IMG/VR virus record: IMGVR_UViG_2579778660_000001
Origin: a virus
Taxonomy: Duplodnaviria; Heunggongvirae; Uroviricota; Caudoviricetes
Strand: one strand, 5' to 3'
DNA length: 64,000 bases
Shown: one piece after another, positions 3,205-40,385 of the stretch
How the letters are laid out: each line of letters starts with the position of its first letter
How positions within the stretch are numbered: the stretch's first letter is position 1
Notes under the pieces: generated by a model
What the model saw: the letters and a program-made list of their open reading frames with translations, nothing else
Database searches by the model: none
What the model was told of the DNA's origin: nothing
Made by a program: the position numbers and the translations under genes

Positions 3205-4233
3205 ATGGGAGAATTAATTATCTCTGGCAGTTCCGGTGGTTTTCTGCGCAACATTGGCAAAGAGTACCAGGAAGCCGCAGAAAACTTTATGCGGTTCATG
3301 AATGACCAGGGGGCTTATGCGCCGAATACTCTGCGCGACCTCCGGTTGGTGTTTCATTCCTGGGCGCGCTGGTGTCACGCTCGCCAGCTCGCCTGGTTCC
3401 CGATCTCACCAGAAATGGCCCGCGAGTATTTTCTTCAGCTGCATGATGCCGATCTGGCTTCGACCACCATTGATAAGCACTACGCCATGCTGAACATGCT
3501 GCTTTCGCATTGTGGCCTTCCGCCACTTTCGGATGATAAAAGTGTTTCTCTGGCTATGCGGCGCATCCGGCGCGAAGCGGCAACTGAAAAAGGCGAACGA
3601 ACAGGCCAGGCTATACCGCTGCGGTGGGACGATCTGAAACTGCTCGACGTCCTGTTGTCCAGGTCAGAACGGCTGGTGGACCTGCGCAACCGGGCTTTTC
3701 TCTTTGTTGCATACAATACGCTGATGCGTATGTCGGAAATCTCGCGTATTCGTGTAGGAGATCTGGACCAAACAGGTGACACTGTCACGCTACATATTTC
3801 ACACACGAAGACAATAACGACCGCCGCCGGGCTTGATAAGGTGCTTTCCCGTCGCACTACCGCTGTGCTGAATGACTGGCTGGATGTTTCCGGGCTTCGC
3901 GAACATCGTGACGCAGTGCTGTTCCCGCCGATACACCGTAGCAATAAGGCCAGGATCACGACAACGCCCCTTACTGCACCTGCAATGGAGAAAATATTCA
4001 GCGACGCCTGGGTGTTGCTGAATAAAAGAGATGCTACGCCAAACAAAGGGAGATACCGGACGTGGACCGGGCATAGTGCACGCGTCGGGGCCGCTATTGA
4101 TATGGCTGAAAAGCAGGTGTCTATGGTGGAGATCATGCAGGAAGGAACCTGGAAGAAACCGGAAACACTTATGCGGTATCTGCGCCGTGGCGGTGTGTCT
4201 GTGGGGGCTAATAGCCGCCTGATGGATTCGTAA
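3205..4233 (+). CDS. cre: Cre-type tyrosine site-specific recombinase
   Basis: 342 aa; similar along whole length to P1 Cre as recalled (e.g. LNMLLSHCGLPPLSDDKSVSLAMRRIRRE, NTLMRMSEISRIRVGDL, WTGHSARVGAAIDMA). Confidence 0.9.
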   Translation: MGELIISGSSGGFLRNIGKEYQEAAENFMRFMNDQGAYAPNTLRDLRLVFHSWARWCHARQLAWFPISPEMAREYFLQLHDADLASTTIDKHYAMLNMLLSHCGLPPLSDDKSVSLAMRRIRREAATEKGERTGQAIPLRWDDLKLLDVLLSRSERLVDLRNRAFLFVAYNTLMRMSEISRIRVGDLDQTGDTVTLHISHTKTITTAAGLDKVLSRRTTAVLNDWLDVSGLREHRDAVLFPPIHRSNKARITTTPLTAPAMEKIFSDAWVLLNKRDATPNKGRYRTWTGHSARVGAAIDMAEKQVSMVEIMQEGTWKKPETLMRYLRRGGVSVGANSRLMDS

Positions 4234-4237
4234 ATTA

Positions 4238-4250
4238 AATTTCTAACACA
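4238..4250. promoter_or_regulatory. operator-like motif variant AAATTTCTAACAC (copy 2)
   Basis: Between cre stop and the 4307 operon start; 9/11 match to core motif. Confidence 0.4.
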
Positions 4251-4306
4251 TCTTTTTAGATTAACGCCTTTGATGTAAAGTACCCTCGCCTATTTAGGAG
4301 GGTGCT

Positions 4307-4651
4307 TTGCAGAGTCAAATCACGGAATCAAGACGCTTCAAGGTGGATGGTTACACCGTAACCTTCGCTGCTGGTGTTAAGAACAGTCATGCTGTCGTTG
4401 TGTTCGGCATCATGACCGGGCTTGAGGCCGTCCCTGTGTTTACCCTCGAAAAAAACTGGCGAAATCTGGAGGAAGCAGAAAGCTACGTCCGGAAAGTAAC
4501 CATCATTGCCGCCGAAAAACTCCTGGCCCACTATCAGGAAAATTATCGCACTATGGTCGAGAAGATTAATCTCGCTTTCACTCGCCCCACTACCGGCTTT
4601 ATTGCACCGGATACTAATGCAGGTCGCTATCCTGCAAGGGGGCGTCGGTGA
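4307..4651 (+). CDS. hypothetical protein (114 aa)
   Basis: TTG start with AGGAGG RBS 5 nt upstream; first gene of operon. Confidence 0.55.
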   Translation: MQSQITESRRFKVDGYTVTFAAGVKNSHAVVVFGIMTGLEAVPVFTLEKNWRNLEEAESYVRKVTIIAAEKLLAHYQENYRTMVEKINLAFTRPTTGFIAPDTNAGRYPARGRR

Positions 4652-5124
4652 AAACTTATTACACATCTCTGAATTGTTACCCGTCTTCCTATCCAGAATT
4701 ATCCGGGAAGCTGTTAGCTCTATTAGCTAAAGCACCTACGGAATGGTTTAAGCCAGTCGTTATCAATCCACACTTCCTGGATTACGGATCTGTTCGCACT
4801 CGTAACGAACTCAAAAACCTACTGGCGCATGGATTCATTCGACACCGTGCCGCGAAAGGCTATCAGTTAGCGATTGCGCCAGAAGAGGCTGTGCGGCTAT
4901 TCGCATATCGTGACAGCCAGACAAAAGCTCGGGTAATAGCTCAAATACTTCATAACGGCAGCACCTATGCCCGCCAGTTTGGCGGCGACACGTCGCAGTT
5001 CTTGCGGGCGGTGCGATCGCTGGAGGAGCAAGGAGTTATTGAAAGTTCCTGTCTTCCTGTTCCTACCGTTCCACATATCAAACGTCGGGTTTACACCTTC
5101 ACGCAGAGAGCTAAAAAACAATGA
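4648..5124 (+). CDS. hypothetical protein (158 aa)
   Basis: GTG start after AGGGGG; 4-nt overlap with upstream gene. Confidence 0.55.
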   Translation: MKTYYTSLNCYPSSYPELSGKLLALLAKAPTEWFKPVVINPHFLDYGSVRTRNELKNLLAHGFIRHRAAKGYQLAIAPEEAVRLFAYRDSQTKARVIAQILHNGSTYARQFGGDTSQFLRAVRSLEEQGVIESSCLPVPTVPHIKRRVYTFTQRAKKQ

Positions 5125-5615
5125 TTTACGTAAAAGTGAAACGCCTACATCCGGCAGCAAAACTTCCAGCTTATGCCACCTCCGGATCGGCGGCGATGGA
5201 TTTTGAGGCTGTTGAAATAAAACCATGCGTCGATAGCAATGGTGCAATTTCCTCAAGCTGGTGGGTGTATACCGGACTGGCTATGGAGATCCCGCCCGGC
5301 TGGTGTCTGAAACTCTATCCGCGATCCGGATTGGGCTGCAAAAAACATACTCGCCTGGCTAACTGCGTAGGAATTATCGACTCCGATTATCGCGGCGAAA
5401 TCATGGCAAAACTGATTACTGATCCCGGCGGGGAAGGCGTTTGTCTCAAGCCTGGAATGGCTGTCATGCAAGGAATTTTTGAACGTGTTGAACAAGTCTC
5501 ACTAGTCGAGGTTGAGGAACTCAACGAAACGGAACGTGGTGCTGGTGGCTTTGGTAGCACATCGGAAGGCCACTTTGAAATTAAGCGTTCACCGCTTCAG
5601 TACGAAAAGTTATAA
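5121..5615 (+). CDS. dut: dUTP pyrophosphatase (dUTPase)
   Basis: Motifs YATSGSAAMD, PRSGLG, GIIDSDYRGE, RGAGGFGSTS; overlaps upstream stop (ATGA). Confidence 0.85.
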   Translation: MIYVKVKRLHPAAKLPAYATSGSAAMDFEAVEIKPCVDSNGAISSSWWVYTGLAMEIPPGWCLKLYPRSGLGCKKHTRLANCVGIIDSDYRGEIMAKLITDPGGEGVCLKPGMAVMQGIFERVEQVSLVEVEELNETERGAGGFGSTSEGHFEIKRSPLQYEKL

Positions 5616-5629
5616 GCAGAGAAAAGACT

Positions 5630-6331
5630 ATGAATAACATGGCAACGAAAGAGCTTTTTAAGTTCCTTCCCAAATACAAAGCTCACAAAAACGTTAGTGC
5701 ATCGAAAATCAAAAATGTTGTTATTTTCGGAGTAACTGATGCCCCACTTTGGGGCAGCATCGAACTCGTTGAACCAAAAGGGGCAACAGTTTGTGTTGAC
5801 GCAATGTTTTTACAAAAACACCGACCAAAAACTGGCGGGTATCTGATCGTTTATGAAAACGGTTATCTGTTCTATGCCCCGGAGAAACCATTTGAGGAAC
5901 GCTATGGCCTGGTTAACGACGTCTCCAAAAATGGAACCACGGTCATCATTACGGATGACAACGGCGAGATGATTAATCTTACCGGGAGCGTAACTATTTC
6001 TGCTGGTGGCATCACCACCCAGCAAGAAGAAATCGACCTTGAAGCAGCCGACTTTTCTGACGCGCTGATGTGGCTGAAGGATGGCAAGAAAGTTGCCCGG
6101 CGCGGGTGGAACGGCGAAAACCAATTCTGCTGGCTGGTTCCAGACAAACACGGCGCTTCAAGACTAACCCCTATAAAACATGCCATCAATGGAGAGCTTG
6201 AAATCAATTTCGACTCTCCTCTTGCTCCTTATGGTACGCATTTCGCTTTGAAAAATGCACAAGGTGTAGTTGTTCCGTGGGTGCCTTCTGTAGGCGACTT
6301 ACTGGCATGTGACTGGTTTGTAGTGGAGTGA
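5630..6331 (+). CDS. fusion protein: unknown N-terminal domain + C-terminal DUF2829 (Tad2-like) domain
   Basis: C-terminal FSDALMWLKDGKKVARRGWNG ... VVPWVPSVGDLLACDWFVVE matches DUF2829 hallmarks. Confidence 0.7.
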   Translation: MNNMATKELFKFLPKYKAHKNVSASKIKNVVIFGVTDAPLWGSIELVEPKGATVCVDAMFLQKHRPKTGGYLIVYENGYLFYAPEKPFEERYGLVNDVSKNGTTVIITDDNGEMINLTGSVTISAGGITTQQEEIDLEAADFSDALMWLKDGKKVARRGWNGENQFCWLVPDKHGASRLTPIKHAINGELEINFDSPLAPYGTHFALKNAQGVVVPWVPSVGDLLACDWFVVE

Positions 6332-20822: not shown

Positions 20823-21139
20823 AAGTTGAATTATAAATTTCTCCGATGTACATTCACTACCGATTGGCACACCGGTCAACTTTTTGAGACAAACTGTATA
20901 GTTTTTCGTATTATTGCCGCCGCCATACCTATGGCGGTGCAATATAGGTGGCTGAAAAGCCCCCGTTGACTCACGGTGTTCCAGCCTTTATTGCGCCGCC
21001 ACCAGACCGTGGAACAGTCGATGGCGGCTCCGAAAGCAAGGAGTCACTACACTATGAACAGCTACTGTCTTTTCCCGTCACTCGTTGTCCGCCACTCACG
21101 CGATAATCTGCATTCTTTACTCGCGCTGGGGGTGTCAAA
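20823..21139 (+). ncRNA. candidate structured regulatory RNA region (antisense-type), speculative
   Basis: No ORF; paired hairpins CCGCCATacctATGGCGG and GCCGCCA-N19-TGGCGGC with shared 7-nt words; follows an operator. Confidence 0.2.
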
Positions 21140-21307: not shown

Positions 21308-21694
21308 AATACTGACTTTTGCGCCCTGGCATTATCGTGGGGTATATTTCTACGGCACCTTAGAAAAACGGGTGCCGGGATTGGAACCTCACGCGGTAGC
21401 TCCTTAACTTAGTCAAAGGAGGCTGCCAATATCGCTACTATCCCCACCCCAACTCATTCTGAATTTATCTGGCGTTTCTATTCCTGCCAAAAACACCTGT
21501 ATATCTGCGTCATGGCTGCAACCGAAGCAGAAGCTCGTTCATACCTTCCCCTGGCGGAACGGGGCGTAATTGGTGATAAACAGATACTGGGAAACAGTGG
21601 AACTACATGAGGCGGGAGTAATTCGTGACCTGATGGAGAATTCCGTTCCCCGCCGCTATCGTGCAGGGAACGGCATCTCCGTGGTTAAAGGTGT

Positions 21695-22087
21695 TTAAAG
21701 CTCACCTGCGCGCTGTTTTTCAAGCACAGATTTAACATTTGGCGCTTTCCCTTTAAAAGAATGGAAAGTGCCACATTTTTCTGTTTTAACCTCGCGCAGA
21801 GCTTCGCCGTCGGCGTTCTGCCATTGATGGGATAATGTCATATCACCGCGAGAAGGAACATCCAGCGAGTACAGCGTGTAAGTTCCCCCCATCTCCGCAT
21901 ACTCCTGGAACACATAGCTCATTACGTCAGATTCAGTTTTTCGGTGTGCGTTATCAACCTTATTCCCATTCAGAAATATGGCATCTGGATAGATTTTTAT
22001 ATCAAACCGACCGCACTTAACTTGTAAATCTCCGGCGCTCGCGATCAAAGGGAAAGACGCCAGTAAAGCAATAGCCAATCTTTTCAA
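21695..22087 (-). CDS. exported protein with signal peptide (130 aa)
   Basis: N-terminal MKRLAIALLASFPLIASA signal sequence. Confidence 0.6.
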   Translation of the reverse strand: MKRLAIALLASFPLIASAGDLQVKCGRFDIKIYPDAIFLNGNKVDNAHRKTESDVMSYVFQEYAEMGGTYTLYSLDVPSRGDMTLSHQWQNADGEALREVKTEKCGTFHSFKGKAPNVKSVLEKQRAGEL

Positions 22088-22107
22088 TTCTGCCTCCGCT
22101 GCGTAAC

Positions 22108-22731
22108 TTATTGCCCGTATTTTTTACACCATTGCTCTGCCATTTGTTTGGCTAAAGGCCCGGCTACTGCACTGTATTCTGCTGTTTTACTTTGCACACA
22201 TGAAGCAGATGGTTTTTTATTTCGCTGCTCGGTTAGTTTGCGCTCATAAGCCATCATGCTATCGAACCCGGCAATATCACTTTGGCGAAGCATTCCCTTT
22301 TTAACCAAAAATTGCTGCCCCTCTGGCACCAACGCAAGCATAAAAAGAGGTTGCAATAACTCACCTAATCCTTGCTGGCGATACACTTCGAATTGCTGCC
22401 ATCCCTGACTTAATCTGGAAAGAGTATCTTTGGTTGAATAACCTGTTTTTGTTATAGCTTTGTCCGTCAGATATGCTGTATATGCAAAAACGCAAAAGTC
22501 AGTTTTACCAATAAACTGAGTTCCAACAGGCCGTAATGGAATGCCCTCCCTCTTGCAAAAGTCCATAATGGCCGCTTGTGAATGAACTCCACCAGCGTTA
22601 TTCATAACCTGCTGCCCTGCCCTGAATTGTGCAGGTAACGCAGTTGCATTGGCAGTATTAGCAGATACGCATCCCAACATAGCCGCGAGCGCGGCCCCTA
22701 AAGCCCTTAACTTCACTACACCATCCTTCAT
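22108..22731 (-). CDS. putative lipoprotein (207 aa)
   Basis: Signal peptide with lipobox-like AAMLGC. Confidence 0.6.
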   Translation of the reverse strand: MKDGVVKLRALGAALAAMLGCVSANTANATALPAQFRAGQQVMNNAGGVHSQAAIMDFCKREGIPLRPVGTQFIGKTDFCVFAYTAYLTDKAITKTGYSTKDTLSRLSQGWQQFEVYRQQGLGELLQPLFMLALVPEGQQFLVKKGMLRQSDIAGFDSMMAYERKLTEQRNKKPSASCVQSKTAEYSAVAGPLAKQMAEQWCKKYGQ

Positions 22732-22935
22732 GCAAACAAAATGAAGTTTTATGTTATAAAAACAATTAACTACATAAACATGATTTAGGCCAAATTTCGG
22801 TTAAAAAATAAAATCCACCAAAAGTGGTTGACACTATTTTGGAAATCACAAACTGCACATAATCCATCGCGCTAACGGCTCCCGTTGAAGGTTCTTTTGA
22901 CGATTAACTTTCAGCCGAAGCGCGGTAGGGAGTCA

Positions 22936-22962
22936 TAACGCCAAAGCAGGCCGCCATGTGCG
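22936..22962 (+). terminator. intrinsic terminator in divergent intergenic region
   Basis: AGGCCGCcatgtGCGGCCT followed by TTTTTTT. Confidence 0.5.
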
Positions 22963-22996
22963 GCCTTTTTTTGTATCCGTCATCCGTGGAGGAAGG

Positions 22997-23653
22997 ACAA
23001 TGGAAAAGATCGCAATATTCAGCCTGACCACCAGCAAGCCTCAAATGCTCACTGCAATACTGAAAGACGGTGCTCTCATTATTAACGAAGTAAAACCCCT
23101 TCCCGCGTCAGCATTGGAGCAAAAGCAAAAAATTCCTCCAGCTATAGCAGCCCTGCGGAAAAGCAAATTTAAGGTACTGGTAGACGAAATTACGCCAACG
23201 ATCTCCGCTGGCACCGGAGCAAGCCAGGTGACTCTCAAGACCCGTCATGCCGATGGCAGAGCAGCAATCATCGTCGGGATGGAAAGATACAGAGAGTTAA
23301 AACTCCAGAAGCTATTATCCCTGCCGCAAAATAACAAAGGTGCTTTCGAAATCCCTGACTCCATCGTTGACACCGAATACAACGGTAACGGAGAAGAAGT
23401 CTACCGGGTGAACTGGCAGGATATCAGGCCGGAGCATATTTTGATGATCCTGTGTTGCTACGCGACCGTATACCACAATGTAGCCAGTGCGGATTACGTA
23501 GAGCAGATGACCGGTACAGTCGAGAAAGAGCAAAAAACAGGCATACTCGCTTCGTTCCTGTCCATTATTGGGCATGAAAAAGTTAAAGCAGGCACCTCCC
23601 AGCCAAAGGCACTGACTGGGAAAGAAGTTGATGAAGATACCGTGATACTTTGA
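22997..23653 (+). CDS. hypothetical protein (218 aa)
   Basis: ATG at 22997 with GGAGGAAGG RBS; track start 22958 is a GTG inside the terminator. Confidence 0.6.
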   Translation, partial: TMEKIAIFSLTTSKPQMLTAILKDGALIINEVKPLPASALEQKQKIPPAIAALRKSKFKVLVDEITPTISAGTGASQVTLKTRHADGRAAIIVGMERYRELKLQKLLSLPQNNKGAFEIPDSIVDTEYNGNGEEVYRVNWQDIRPEHILMILCCYATVYHNVASADYVEQMTGTVEKEQKTGILASFLSIIGHEKVKAGTSQPKALTGKEVDEDTVIL

Positions 23654-25530: not shown

Positions 25531-26259
25531 TCATTTTTTTGAAAGATCAATTCCAGTATTATCAAATAAACTGGAAATATCAGACACCAATTTATTAAAA
25601 TGCTTGTCATCATTATAGAATGATGTGCTTTTTATAGCGACTATAAAATCACATAAATCTTGCGGAGATTCAATGCTAACACCCTTATTTTTATATAGTT
25701 CAATAATACTGCCAACATCAGTATGCAATAGTTTTATCGCACCACAAATTTCTCGCTGTTTCGTAGCTAGGTCATTAAGTTTATTTTCATTTTCATCTAA
25801 TATTTGTTTTGAATATTTAGCGTCATTGGTTGCTTGATTTAACTTTGTTTTCTTTCTTTGCAATTCTATTCTTTTATCATAATCAGCAACTTCATCTAAA
25901 TATCTTATTTCAGTGTATAATTTACTTGTTAGCTTAGATATCGTCAGTGTGAGAATAGGAGCTAATACAGATGCAAATACTCCATAAATAAATGGGATTA
26001 CAACGTGACAAACCCACGGGGGTACAATCCAATTATCAAAGAACGGTACATTACCACCAACAAAAACAATAGATAATGTATATAGGATGTCGTCCTTTGA
26101 CTTTAATATAATTAAAATATCCTTCCAGTTAAGGATTAGAAAAGAAATGACAACATATGCAAAAACCTTGTTAAATATTTTATCTTTTATTATTTCAGAA
26201 AATGATTTTAGTTCTGTTTCATTTATAGACGGATTATCTTTAACTTTTTCTGACATCAT
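25531..26259 (-). CDS. AT-rich hypothetical membrane protein (242 aa); candidate exclusion/abortive-infection-type cargo
   Basis: Visibly lower GC than flanks; 2-3 N-terminal TM helices, helical C-terminus; AGGAT RBS. Confidence 0.65.
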   Translation of the reverse strand: MMSEKVKDNPSINETELKSFSEIIKDKIFNKVFAYVVISFLILNWKDILIILKSKDDILYTLSIVFVGGNVPFFDNWIVPPWVCHVVIPFIYGVFASVLAPILTLTISKLTSKLYTEIRYLDEVADYDKRIELQRKKTKLNQATNDAKYSKQILDENENKLNDLATKQREICGAIKLLHTDVGSIIELYKNKGVSIESPQDLCDFIVAIKSTSFYNDDKHFNKLVSDISSLFDNTGIDLSKK

Positions 26260-26537: not shown

Positions 26538-26876
26538 TCAGGCTGCTTTTTTATTCATGTTCCGCTGAGAAATAAATTTTTCAGCAGTATTGATACGACT
26601 TAACTCTTCCTGAACGCGCATATCATTTTCGACTTCCCACAGATCTACTGCGGTCTGAAGATTAATCCAAAAATCTACAGAAGTATCGAATGCTTTTGCC
26701 AGGCGATATGCCATATCCATCGTTAGCTTACGATTATTATTAACAAGAGCACTTACGGTGTTACGATGAACATGAAGTATTTCTGCTAACTCGTTGATCT
26801 TCAGCTCTAACGGCTCCAGGTATTCGTACAGCAGGATATCACCTACGGTCGTCGGTTTTCTGGTTGCCTGTTTCAT
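26538..26876 (-). CDS. higA: HigA-family antitoxin (XRE HTH)
   Basis: VGDILLYEYLEPLELKINELAEILHVHRNTVSALVNNNRKLTMDMAYRLAKAFDTSVDFWINLQ. Confidence 0.8.
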   Translation of the reverse strand: MKQATRKPTTVGDILLYEYLEPLELKINELAEILHVHRNTVSALVNNNRKLTMDMAYRLAKAFDTSVDFWINLQTAVDLWEVENDMRVQEELSRINTAEKFISQRNMNKKAA

Positions 26877-26947
26877 TTTTTTGCCCTTACTAGCGTGCGT
26901 ATTAAGTGGACTCTGGTCAGAACCCGGTCCGTAACCGGGTATCTGTT

Positions 26948-27250
26948 TTAGTATTTGTGAGGGTCGAGATACAAGTCCTCGGCCTTTCCGTTAACCCACT
27001 TAAAAATTAACCTATATTGCTTATTCACCCTTACTGATGAATAGCCATTTAGCTTCCCTGACAGTTCCTCATACCGATTACCTGGTGGTGATCTTAAATC
27101 CTTACAGGTAGTTGCGGCATTGATAATGTCCAACTTCCGTGACAATGTCATATGAATATCAGGAGGTATCTTTCTATGTGGTGTTGAAAATTCAAAAAAA
27201 TCATCAAGCCACGCATCCCTGAAATCCTTTATGTTAATTTTTTTGGTCAT
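26948..27250 (-). CDS. higB: HigB-family toxin (RelE/ParE superfamily)
   Basis: 100 aa; ...LRSPPGNRYEELSGKLNGYSSVRVNKQYRLIFKWVNG...; toxin-first order. Confidence 0.8.
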   Translation of the reverse strand: MTKKINIKDFRDAWLDDFFEFSTPHRKIPPDIHMTLSRKLDIINAATTCKDLRSPPGNRYEELSGKLNGYSSVRVNKQYRLIFKWVNGKAEDLYLDPHKY

Positions 27251-39760: not shown

Positions 39761-40219
39761 ATGGTTTTGAAAAAGATAATTTTGATTGTAATTGCTCTTT
39801 TAGCCATTTCTGGAATTTACCGAACAACGACGGCAGTTATCGAACACATCAGGTATGTCCGATCGCTTGAAGACTCAAAATCACAACTGGAAAGCACGAA
39901 CAACACGCTTTCTACCGCATTACAGTTAAGTGAGAACGCTCGCTCAGCCATGCTGACCGAAAACGAAAGAATTAAAGCACTGGAAAAGGAGTACCAACGC
40001 AAAACAGCAGAACTGAATGCCAACCTAATCAAACAACGGGAGGAAAGCCAGAATGAAATCACTCGTCTTGAAAATGCGTTACGCCGTGCTGGGATTAACG
40101 ATGTACGTGTGCCTGATGACGTTATCAGGATGCAGCGGGAACGGGCAAAAGCCATCAACCAGCGTGCCAGTGAAAATTACCGTAGAAGCCACCAGCAGGC
40201 CGCAGGCAAATCTGATTGA
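39761..40219 (+). CDS. i-spanin (Rz-like)
   Basis: N-terminal TM anchor then coiled coil; contains start of o-spanin in +1 frame. Confidence 0.65.
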   Translation: MVLKKIILIVIALLAISGIYRTTTAVIEHIRYVRSLEDSKSQLESTNNTLSTALQLSENARSAMLTENERIKALEKEYQRKTAELNANLIKQREESQNEITRLENALRRAGINDVRVPDDVIRMQRERAKAINQRASENYRRSHQQAAGKSD

Positions 40220-40385
40220 CTACTCCCCTTGTTTAGTGCCAGAAGACACGCCAGTGCTGTTAAACAAGTATCCGACATACGCTGAACAGTTATTCAGCAC
40301 GATCGACGAATGCAACCAACGAAACGCACTGAATAACCAAAAAAACAGGGAGATTTGGGAAGGGAAGGGGGATCAAGGCTCCTGA
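40053..40385 (+). CDS. o-spanin (Rz1-like lipoprotein)
   Basis: Lipobox LSGC after signal peptide; starts inside i-spanin and extends beyond it. Confidence 0.65.
   Translation: MKSLVLKMRYAVLGLTMYVCLMTLSGCSGNGQKPSTSVPVKITVEATSRPQANLIDYSPCLVPEDTPVLLNKYPTYAEQLFSTIDECNQRNALNNQKNREIWEGKGDQGS

What the first reader, a model, noticed from the sequence alone, without database searches (positions are those of the whole stretch)
21695..22731. Pair of exported proteins (one lipoprotein) in an accessory position
Two adjacent leftward genes encode proteins with clear signal peptides, one with a lipobox, and no structural-module context. Prophage-encoded periplasmic proteins are frequently superinfection-exclusion or host-interaction factors.
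Basis: partly seen in the sequence, partly recalled or inferred. Interest (0 to 1): 0.4.

Follow-up and report, generated by a model that had tools for sequence, protein, structure and literature searches.

The report
Paired exported proteins in phage-plasmid sim slot
Two small co-transcribed genes of a D6/P1-like E. coli phage-plasmid encode secreted proteins of unknown fold that work as a unit and sit in the slot where relatives carry a 'superimmunity' (Sim) gene, which makes them a reasonable but untested candidate for blocking incoming phages.

Summary
Two adjacent minus-strand genes, orfA (22108-22716, 202 aa from a GTG start) and orfB (21695-22087, 130 aa from a TTG start), each begin with a Sec-type signal peptide. 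Both are under purifying selection.

The window is a D6-like (P1-related) phage-plasmid. The lipobox in orfA (AMLG|C16) is real in this allele but absent from many homologs. All homologs instead keep an AXA-type signal peptidase I site just before a conserved (A/P)(L/M)P motif, so "lipoprotein" is not a family property.

- **One functional unit:** the two proteins are fused into a single gene at the same slot in Enterobacter hormaechei, and in two metagenomic proteins.
- **The slot is the D6 "simB" slot:** the cassette replaces D6 orf80 plus the simB-like gene, using the same upstream region and the same first ~14 codons.
- **orfA also pairs with SimB-like genes:** this occurs in E. coli pF719-4 and in a Citrobacter plasmid.

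Neither protein has relatives in Pfam, NCBIfam, PADLOC, PDB or BFVD. The orfA family has only 22 representatives among 1.84 billion.

Function is inferred, not shown. A Sim-like periplasmic exclusion or envelope-defence module is most likely (about 0.35). It is moderately interesting and uncharacterised, but of a familiar kind.

The parts
22108..22716 (-). orfA coding sequence (202 aa from GTG; the maximal ORF reaches the ATG at 22731). The predicted mature protein is all-alpha, with 4 cysteines conserved among close homologs.
   Evidence: ORF list. RefSeq start and length. Homolog alignments. AF2 mean pLDDT 83.7, pTM 0.70, ten helices. dN/dS 0.10-0.41.
22645..22716 (-). orfA signal peptide (residues 1-24: MKLRALGAALAAMLGCVSANTANA). 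It has an ANA|T signal peptidase I site directly before the conserved ALPA motif.
   Evidence: Sequence. The AXA-type site before (A/P)(L/M)P is conserved in all homologs.
22669..22671 (-). Cys16 codon of the lipobox-like motif A-M-L-G-C. It is allele-specific and not conserved.
   Evidence: the position is Gly in P0002/P0003/P0008, and the motif is absent in P0007 and the distant members.
22724..22728 (-). AAGGA ribosome-binding site, 7 nt upstream of the GTG start of orfA.
   Evidence: Read directly from the sequence.
21695..22087 (-). orfB coding sequence (130 aa, TTG start). The predicted mature protein is small and beta-rich, with 2 invariant cysteines.
   Evidence: AF2 pLDDT 64, seven strands. 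dN/dS 0.08-0.12.
22034..22087 (-). orfB signal peptide (MKRLAIALLASFPLIASA|GD).
   Evidence: Sequence, heuristic scan, conserved in homologs.
22093..22097 (-). GGAGG ribosome-binding site of orfB, inside the 20-nt gap after the orfA stop codon. This points to a tightly linked operon.
   Evidence: Read directly from the sequence.
21658..22673 (.). The cassette that differs from phage D6. It replaces D6 orf80 plus the simB-like orf79. The right-hand junction (about 22674) lies inside the orfA signal-peptide codons.
   Evidence: blastn of the D6 locus against the window. D6 orf79's annotated N-terminus, VKLMVLGTALAA, is a remnant of the orfA start. pF719-4 shows the undeleted orfA + simB-like arrangement.
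22717..22999 (.). Divergent intergenic region shared with mat. It must hold the orfA-orfB promoter, but only a weak sigma-70 match was found (GTGTCA-18-TATTTT, 22834..22805, minus strand). It is shared at about 92-96% identity with the region upstream of the D6 simB-like gene.
20927..21006 (+). Context: C4-type antisense RNA of an immI-like immunity region, upstream of the truncated icd.
   Evidence: Rfam RF01695, 40.2 bits (gathering score 45), E 1.3e-5.
21431..21550 (+). Context: truncated icd-like gene, convergent with orfB. The ant and pmgF genes of D6 are missing here.
   Evidence: RefSeq annotation of a 99.2% identical plasmid. D6 comparison.

Best explanation
orfA and orfB form a two-gene operon of a D6-like (P1-related) phage-plasmid.

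Supported by sequence and comparative evidence here:
- Both products carry Sec-type signal peptides. Export itself is predicted, not demonstrated.
- orfA is probably cleaved by signal peptidase I after Ala24. In this allele it could alternatively be lipidated at Cys16.
- The two proteins act as one unit, most likely a disulfide-stabilised periplasmic complex. Related elements encode them as a single fused polypeptide at the same locus.
- The operon occupies the 'sim slot' of these phages, beside the immI immunity region and divergent from mat. Other D6-like elements carry a SimB-family exported protein there, either alone or together with orfA.
- orfA alleles are swapped by recombination between otherwise near-identical backbones.

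Inferred mechanism: the complex sits in the periplasm of the cell carrying the prophage. Like P1 Sim, it interferes with a post-adsorption, envelope-crossing step of an incoming phage, for example transit of the tail tip or the DNA through the periplasm and peptidoglycan. On this reading orfA would be the common scaffold, and orfB or SimB-like the interchangeable partner.
For: Export:
- Signal peptides are present in both proteins and in all full-length homologs.
- Conserved cysteines come in even numbers.

One functional unit:
- A 20-nt gap with a GGAGG separates the two genes.
- orfA::orfB fusions exist: P0024, P0027 and P0042.
- The annotated 277-aa fusion gene in Enterobacter hormaechei p60214CZ_1 is divergent from mat at the same slot.
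- orfA-like followed by an apparently frameshifted orfB-like gene persists in a Vibrio plasmid.

Sim-slot link:
- D6 is colinear with the window except that orf80 plus simB-like is replaced by orfB plus orfA, with the junction inside the orfA signal-peptide codons.
- E. coli pF719-4 has orfA followed by a 270-aa SimB-like gene that is 90% identical to D6 orf79. D6 itself is a clean deletion of the orfA body.
- A Citrobacter freundii plasmid has an exported 123-aa protein, then orfA-like, then a SimB homolog (42% identity, E 4e-31) on one strand.
- P1 simA, simB and simC all encode signal-peptide proteins next to c4/icd/ant.
- Sim is cited as preventing superinfecting phages from injecting their DNA (Kliem & Dreiseikelmann 1989, cited in PMC8546580).
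- The simB vicinity is already reported as a variable region in D6-like prophages (PMC6799933).

Immunity context: C4 RNA and an icd remnant lie immediately next to the pair.

Allelic turnover: orfA is 58-66% identical between plasmids whose mat or orfB are 96-100% identical, while dN/dS stays below 1.
Against: - Neither protein resembles SimA, SimB, SimC or any characterised exclusion or defence protein.
- SimB's own role is only 'putative accessory'. The proven P1 exclusion factor corresponds to SimC, which has no homolog in the window and was found only in P1 and two close relatives among deposited phages.
- No convincing sigma-70 promoter, P1 C1 operator or P1 late-promoter box was found upstream, so the timing of expression is unknown.
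- orfA-like and orfB-like genes also occur alone, some outside recognisable phage-plasmids. P0007 lies on IS-rich E. coli plasmids that also carry Ail/Lom-like and M60-like (AcfD/SslE-type) genes. P0043 sits among metabolic genes on a short metagenomic contig.
- Whole-gene dN/dS is below 1, so there is no direct sign of positive selection.
- Signal peptides were judged by rule and by conservation, not with SignalP or LipoP.
Confidence: 0.35

Rival explanations
1. Envelope-protection or immunity module that is not aimed at phage entry. The periplasmic pair would neutralise an externally delivered envelope-acting enzyme or toxin, such as a lysozyme, a lytic transglycosylase, a colicin or a T6SS effector. 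orfB would be the small beta-barrel inhibitor.
For: - In Serratia pJSRIV002_3 an orfB-like gene is followed by an unknown 232-aa protein, a DUF2645 membrane protein and an Hcp gene.
- Periplasmic location and allelic diversity would suit an immunity protein.
Against: - No toxin or effector gene adjoins the pair in the window or in most other loci.
- Pfam and PADLOC find nothing.
Confidence: 0.2
2. Host-fitness or lysogenic-conversion 'moron' with no role in phage or toxin defence. Examples would be a periplasmic stress, adhesion or virulence-associated factor that benefits the carrier bacterium.
For: - An orfA homolog (P0007) stands alone, flanked by IS elements, on 94-168-kb E. coli plasmids near Ail/Lom-like and M60-like (AcfD/SslE-type) genes.
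- Other homologs occur singly.
- The cassette is an accessory: it is present in only 38 of 5426 complete E. coli genomes at 80% or more coverage.
Against: - The great majority of homologs are in non-mobilizable plasmids of roughly 78-140 kb (mostly 85-98 kb), the several inspected here being P1/D6-like, at the same slot beside immunity genes.
- Even the P0007 loci carry P1 remnants, such as a RepL fragment.
- The repeated association with Sim-family genes would go unexplained.
Confidence: 0.2
3. Function in the phage's own lytic cycle. The pair could be a periplasmic accessory for lysis timing or release, or could prevent progeny from adsorbing to debris of lysed cells.
For: - The operon is divergent from mat, the maturation control gene, and next to baseplate/tail genes 26/25.
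- P1-type phages encode several periplasmic proteins of unknown role, such as ppfA, mlp and plp.
- No lysogenic-type promoter or operator was found.
Against: - The slot is freely replaced or deleted in the viable phage D6, so the pair is not needed for growth.
- No P1-type late-promoter box lies upstream.
- The P1 sim genes at the analogous position are non-essential (PMC10695390).
Confidence: 0.15
4. Decaying or non-functional cargo: ORFs kept only by linkage to the plasmid backbone.
For: - The neighbouring immI region is visibly decayed: icd is truncated and ant is lost.
- Some copies are fragmentary or frameshifted (P0010, P0021, H46, H49).
Against: - dN/dS is 0.08-0.41 across alleles whose synonymous sites are saturated.
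- Signal peptides, cysteines and motifs are conserved out to about 25-30% identity, and the domain fusion is retained.
Confidence: 0.05

Closest known systems
P1 sim (superimmunity) operon simA-simB-simC
   Same: - An operon of small proteins that all carry Sec signal peptides.
- It lies beside the immI (c4-icd-ant) immunity region of a P1-type plasmid prophage.
- It is non-essential.
- orfA-family genes are found in the same operon as SimB-family genes in two independent contexts.
   Different: - orfA and orfB show no sequence or profile similarity to SimA, SimB or SimC.
- The window has no Sim homolog at all.
- In P1 the operon is divergent from c4. Here the pair is convergent with the icd remnant and divergent from mat.
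- The exclusion phenotype is documented only for P1 sim (literature cited).
Phage D6 orf79 ('similar to P1 simB', putative superimmunity accessory protein) and its pF719-4 ortholog
   Same: - Same locus, same strand, and the same upstream region at about 92-96% DNA identity.
- The same first ~14 codons.
- It is also an exported protein.
- In pF719-4 it is the gene immediately downstream of orfA, exactly where orfB sits in the window.
   Different: - It is unrelated in sequence to orfB.
- It is a 270-298-aa two-domain protein whose N-terminal domain is SimB-like (51-52% identity).
- D6 itself lacks orfA, through a deletion.
Periplasmic or membrane superinfection-exclusion proteins of other phages (T4 Imm/Sp, HK97 gp15, T5 Llp and phi80 Cor lipoproteins); named from general knowledge
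   Same: They are small, prophage- or phage-encoded envelope proteins in accessory positions, and they are typically orphan families.
   Different: - orfA and orfB match only two PHROGs of unknown function, and nothing in Pfam or PADLOC.
- Llp and Cor block outer-membrane protein receptors. As I recall it, P1-type phages adsorb to the LPS core, so a different step would have to be targeted.
- No direct sequence comparison with these proteins was run.
MliC/PliC-type periplasmic lysozyme inhibitors and VirK-like small beta-barrel proteins
   Different: The scores are at noise level and come from a low-confidence model. There is no Pfam match and no conserved inhibitor loop motif was identified.

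Membership tests
P1 Sim (SimC) superinfection-exclusion protein | Sequence homology to SimC | tested here: not met
   BLASTP gives only chance-level short segments. hhalign of the orfA profile against SimC gives probability 0.05%. tblastn of SimC against the window finds nothing.
P1 Sim (SimC) superinfection-exclusion protein | Sec signal peptide, with the processed protein located in the periplasm | tested here: met
   Both proteins have n-h-c regions and AXA-type sites, conserved in their homologs. This rests on rule-based prediction and conservation only. Export was not shown.
P1 Sim (SimC) superinfection-exclusion protein | Location beside the immI immunity region of a P1-type prophage | tested here: met
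   C4 RNA lies at 20927-21006 and the truncated icd at 21431-21550, directly next to orfB. The orientation differs from P1.
P1 Sim (SimC) superinfection-exclusion protein | Blocks infection after adsorption when expressed | not testable with these tools
   This needs plating, adsorption and DNA-entry assays.
SimB family (P1 SimB, D6 orf79) | Sequence homology to the SimB domain (DCNS...CYG.Y.[FY]SDG...Y[KP]NSLG) | tested here: not met
   By contrast, the neighbours of orfA homologs at L005 6509-6850 and L018 3123-3935 do meet it (E 4e-31 and 5e-25).
Bacterial lipoprotein (Lgt/LspA substrate) | Lipobox [LVI..][ASTVIL][GAS]C at the end of a short signal peptide | tested here: met
   orfA has A-M-L-G-C16 after MKLR+ALGAALA. 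It fits the PROSITE PS51257-type rule, applied from memory. The -3/-2 residues (M, L) are atypical.
Bacterial lipoprotein (Lgt/LspA substrate) | The lipobox Cys is conserved across the family | tested here: not met
   The position is Gly in P0002/P0003/P0008. The motif is absent in P0007, P0022, P0024, P0027-P0043. An AXA site before (A/P)(L/M)P is conserved instead.
Bacterial lipoprotein (Lgt/LspA substrate) | Acylation and globomycin-sensitive processing | not testable with these tools
   This needs palmitate labelling or globomycin treatment.
Known anti-phage defence systems (PADLOC-DB v2) | Match to any defence-protein model | tested here: not met
   Neither protein matches any family at E up to 1.
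MliC/PliC lysozyme-inhibitor fold | Significant structural or sequence similarity | tested here: inconclusive

The most novel reading that the evidence does not exclude
orfA and orfB would define a new, structurally novel class of periplasmic two-component exclusion or defence module in P1/D6-like phage-plasmids. A common alpha-helical subunit (orfA) would pair with interchangeable partner subunits (orfB or SimB-like proteins, sometimes fused to it) that set specificity. The 'sim slot' would then be a combinatorial hot spot for envelope-level anti-phage functions.
Probability: 0.2. Interest if true: 0.6.

Novelty: new variant of a known kind. Interest (0 to 1): 0.38.

Why it matters
Superinfection exclusion by P1-type phages (Sim) has been known since the 1980s, yet its mechanism is still not explained.

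This locus shows that the sim slot of P1/D6-like phage-plasmids holds a rotating set of unrelated exported proteins. It also shows that one of them (orfA) partners physically or functionally with either orfB or a SimB-family protein.

That gives a concrete, small experimental system for asking how periplasmic proteins stop phage entry:
- two genes, with natural fusions;
- natural allelic series on near-identical backbones;
- a natural orfA deletion in D6.

These phage-plasmids are also common carriers of resistance genes in Enterobacteriaceae (for example PMC9603915 and PMC9837566, listed). Determinants of which phages and plasmids can enter a carrier cell therefore have practical relevance.

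If the pair has no exclusion phenotype, it remains an ordinary orphan moron.

Tried and rejected
- **Family libraries:** Pfam, NCBIfam and PADLOC scans of both proteins, and Pfam scans of every member of the extended alignments, gave nothing above noise. PHROGs gave only two families of unknown function.
- **PDB by sequence:** profile searches found nothing.
- **Sim proteins:** direct and profile comparisons with P1 SimA/B/C and with D6 orf79 showed no similarity, apart from the shared N-terminal remnant in D6 orf79.
- **Regulatory motifs:** no P1 C1 operator occurs anywhere in the window. The late-promoter -22/-10 box occurs at chance frequency and not upstream of the pair. The consensus sigma-70 scan found only a weak candidate.
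- **Genome-collection scan:** a scan of genome contigs with the broad alignment failed because no stretch was conserved enough.
- **Neighbouring genes:** Pfam scans of neighbours of the distant homologs, made to look for a toxin or effector partner, were uninformative.
- **Deposited phage genomes:** neither protein is encoded in any of 50,697 records.
- **Literature:** a search by protein accession and by PHROG id found no paper. The D6 genome paper was not held in the library.
- **Rejected ideas:** a spanin pair was rejected because the genes do not overlap or nest, neither mature protein has a predicted transmembrane anchor, and a separate spanin-like pair lies at 39761-40385. A virion structural role was rejected because both proteins carry signal peptides and the slot is dispensable in D6.

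Full report
**1. What is there**

The span 21695-22731 holds two minus-strand ORFs.

- orfA is 207 aa from the ATG at 22731. That ATG has no Shine-Dalgarno sequence.
- The GTG at 22716 is preceded by AAGGA with a 7-nt spacer. RefSeq uses this start, giving 202 aa. Distant homologs also begin here.
- orfB (130 aa) starts at a TTG 5 nt after a GGAGG, only 20 nt beyond the orfA stop codon. The two genes therefore form a tight operon.

Both products begin with classical Sec signal peptides:
- orfA: MKLR-ALGAALAAMLG-C16-VSANTANA|TALPA.
- orfB: MKR-LAIALLASFPLIASA|GD.

A crude signal-peptide rule flags only 6 of 123 ORFs of at least 90 aa in the window. orfB is one of them. orfA shows the same features when scored from the GTG start.

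**2. The element**

- The region is 99.8% identical to ~89-kb E. coli plasmids, and almost all matches are plasmid-borne.
- The annotated relatives carry ref, an icd-like pseudogene, mat, P1 genes 26, 25, 7 and 24, rdgC and dam.
- The window is colinear with phage D6, a P1 relative.
- A C4-type antisense RNA lies at 20927-21006. The icd gene is truncated, and D6's ant and pmgF are missing.
- The pair therefore sits between a decayed immI immunity region and mat plus the baseplate/tail genes, and is transcribed divergently from mat.

**3. Real genes, narrow families**

- Between alleles, dN/dS is 0.10-0.41 for orfA and 0.08-0.12 for orfB, against 0.03-0.09 for mat.
- Word-indexed searches of 5.8 billion proteins found only 10-11 clusters each, all from Enterobacteriaceae.
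- An exhaustive profile search of 1.84 billion representatives found 22 proteins for orfA.
- tblastn finds orfA in 67 plasmid records and orfB in 86. Nearly all are non-mobilizable plasmids of about 78-140 kb (mostly 85-98 kb) from Escherichia, Shigella, Salmonella, Citrobacter, Enterobacter and Leclercia, plus one each from Serratia and Vibrio.
- This allele of the cassette is in 38 of 5426 complete E. coli genomes.
- Neither protein is encoded in any of 50,697 deposited phage genomes.
- Pfam, NCBIfam and PADLOC give nothing. PHROGs gives two families of unknown function.

**4. Lipoprotein or not**

The motif A-M-L-G-C16 fits a lipobox rule. However, the Cys is Gly in three allele clusters (P0002, P0003 and P0008, with 28, 80 and 52 member sequences). 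It is absent in P0007 and in every distant member.

What is conserved is an AXA-type site (ANA, ATA, TYA, AYA, GYS, FAQ...) directly before an (A/P)(L/M)P motif. The family is therefore a signal peptidase I-processed periplasmic protein. Lipidation is at most an allele-specific extra. If it did occur, the +2 Val would direct the protein to the outer membrane (general Lol sorting rule, from memory).

Conserved cysteines come in even numbers:
- orfA has four among the close homologs, of which C54 and C75 are invariant across the whole family.
- orfB has C25 and C105, both invariant.

This fits disulfide-bonded periplasmic proteins.

**5. Structure**

- orfB is predicted as a seven-stranded beta protein at low confidence (pLDDT 64).

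**6. The two proteins are one unit**

- Three proteins (P0024, P0027, P0042) join an orfA domain, lacking its C-terminal helical hairpin, through a short linker to an orfB domain.
- One such fusion is the annotated 277-aa gene of Enterobacter hormaechei p60214CZ_1. It sits divergent from mat and next to icd and ref, which is the orthologous slot.
- In a Vibrio parahaemolyticus plasmid, an orfA-like gene (30% identity) is followed by a gene that starts like orfB and then diverges. This is probably a frameshift.
- This is Rosetta-stone evidence plus conserved-adjacency evidence for a joint function, most simply a complex.

**7. Link to Sim**

- Compared with D6, the window replaces D6 orf80 plus orf79 ('similar to P1 simB') by orfB plus orfA.
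- The right-hand junction falls inside the orfA signal-peptide codons. The annotated N-terminus of D6 orf79 (VKLMVLGTALAA) is a remnant of orfA.
- E. coli pF719-4 shows the intact intermediate: orfA followed by a 270-aa SimB-like gene that is 90% identical to D6 orf79. D6 is a clean deletion of the orfA body.
- Independently, a 94.8-kb Citrobacter freundii plasmid contig has, on one strand, an exported 123-aa protein, an orfA-like gene and a short SimB homolog (42% identity to P1 SimB, E 4e-31).
- In P1, simA, simB and simC all encode signal-peptide proteins beside c4-icd-ant.
- sim is described as a superinfection-exclusion function acting on DNA injection (references 56 and 57 of PMC8546580). 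It is non-essential (PMC10695390).
- A population study of D6-like prophages already noted that the simB vicinity is variable and can be replaced by uncharacterised hypothetical proteins (PMC6799933).
- orfA and orfB themselves have no detectable similarity to SimA, SimB or SimC, and the window encodes no Sim homolog.

**8. Allelic turnover**

- Plasmids L016 and L019 have identical mat and orfB, yet their orfA differs at 20% of residues.
- The window and pF719-4 have 99% identical Mat but 58% identical orfA.
- The orfA C-terminal hairpin exists in two unrelated versions.
- orfA is thus a recombination hot spot on otherwise conserved backbones, while remaining under purifying selection overall.

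**9. Interpretation**

Supported by the sequence evidence: a conserved two-gene, functionally coupled pair with predicted signal peptides, located in the sim slot of a D6-like phage-plasmid.

Inferred: the pair acts in the periplasm of the carrier cell, most plausibly as a Sim-like block to an incoming phage (about 0.35).

Rivals:
- protection against envelope-acting enzymes or toxins (0.2);
- a host-fitness moron (0.2), supported by lone copies on IS-rich E. coli plasmids and on a short metagenomic contig among metabolic genes;
- a role in the phage's own lytic cycle (0.15);
- non-functional cargo (0.05).

Expression timing could not be determined. There is no P1 C1 operator in the window, no late-promoter box upstream, and only a weak sigma-70 candidate.

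**10. Verdict**

- The lipoprotein label is allele-specific.
- The exclusion idea is now backed by locus-level association rather than by generic expectation, but it remains untested.
- The proteins are orphan families with an apparently new fold.
- The kind of thing, an accessory periplasmic protein cassette beside a prophage immunity region, is familiar.
- Rating: a new variant of a known kind, of moderate interest.

Noticed in passing
window 22855-22976 (+), just upstream of mat (start 23000): A non-coding stretch of about 120 nt ends in a strong intrinsic-terminator hairpin (AGGCCGCCATGTGCGGCCT followed by seven T) directly before the mat ribosome-binding site. It is almost invariant among E. 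coli, Shigella and D6 copies whose mat genes are saturated at synonymous sites (dS 1.3-2.4). In Enterobacter hormaechei it is conserved with a stem sequence that differs but still pairs. There is no Rfam match. The predicted fold is -42.3 kcal/mol (z -2.1). It may be a small RNA or a leader/attenuator that controls mat.
   Followed up: partly
window 20927-21006 (+) and 21431-21550 (+): There is a C4-type antisense RNA (RF01695, 40.2 bits, just under the gathering score) downstream of ref, followed by a truncated icd. The ant (Rha/KilA-type) and pmgF genes present in D6 and in sister plasmids are deleted. This element therefore appears to have lost its antirepressor arm of immI.
   Followed up: partly
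L002 (phage D6) 5141-6037, orf79: The annotated start of the D6 simB-like gene (VKLMVLGTALAAKMVRYGVNE...) is a leftover of the deleted orfA. The real start is probably the internal Met (MFFIKNGKRF...TLTFA|YDF), which gives a normal signal peptide, as in the pF719-4 ortholog.
   Followed up: yes
window 39761-40219 (+) and 40053-40385 (+): These are two overlapping ORFs. One has an N-terminal membrane anchor (MVLKKIILIVIALLAISG...). The other, in a different frame, has a textbook lipobox (LTMYVCLMTLSG|C). They look like an i-spanin/o-spanin pair of the lysis module.
   Followed up: no
L012 (Serratia sp. pJSRIV002_3) 4001-6022: A distant orfB-like gene stands without orfA. It is followed by an unknown 232-aa cytoplasmic-type protein, a DUF2645 membrane protein and a convergent Hcp (T6SS) gene. 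This could hint that orfB-type proteins serve as periplasmic immunity proteins.
   Followed up: partly
L015 (Vibrio parahaemolyticus pLH214-1) 4531-5307: An orfA-like gene on a conjugative (MOBC/MPF_T) plasmid also carries RepL and an Icd-like gene. The gene after it begins like orfB (signal peptide plus YKFACGNKTFRF) and then loses similarity. This is probably a frameshifted orfB.
   Followed up: partly
window 25531-26259 (-) and 26538-27250 (-): Accessory genes are inserted among the tail/baseplate genes. One is a 242-aa protein of unknown function with hydrophobic segments (D6 orf73 equivalent). The others are the D6 orf70/orf71 toxin-antitoxin equivalents (annotated HigB/HTH antitoxin in sister plasmids).
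   Followed up: no
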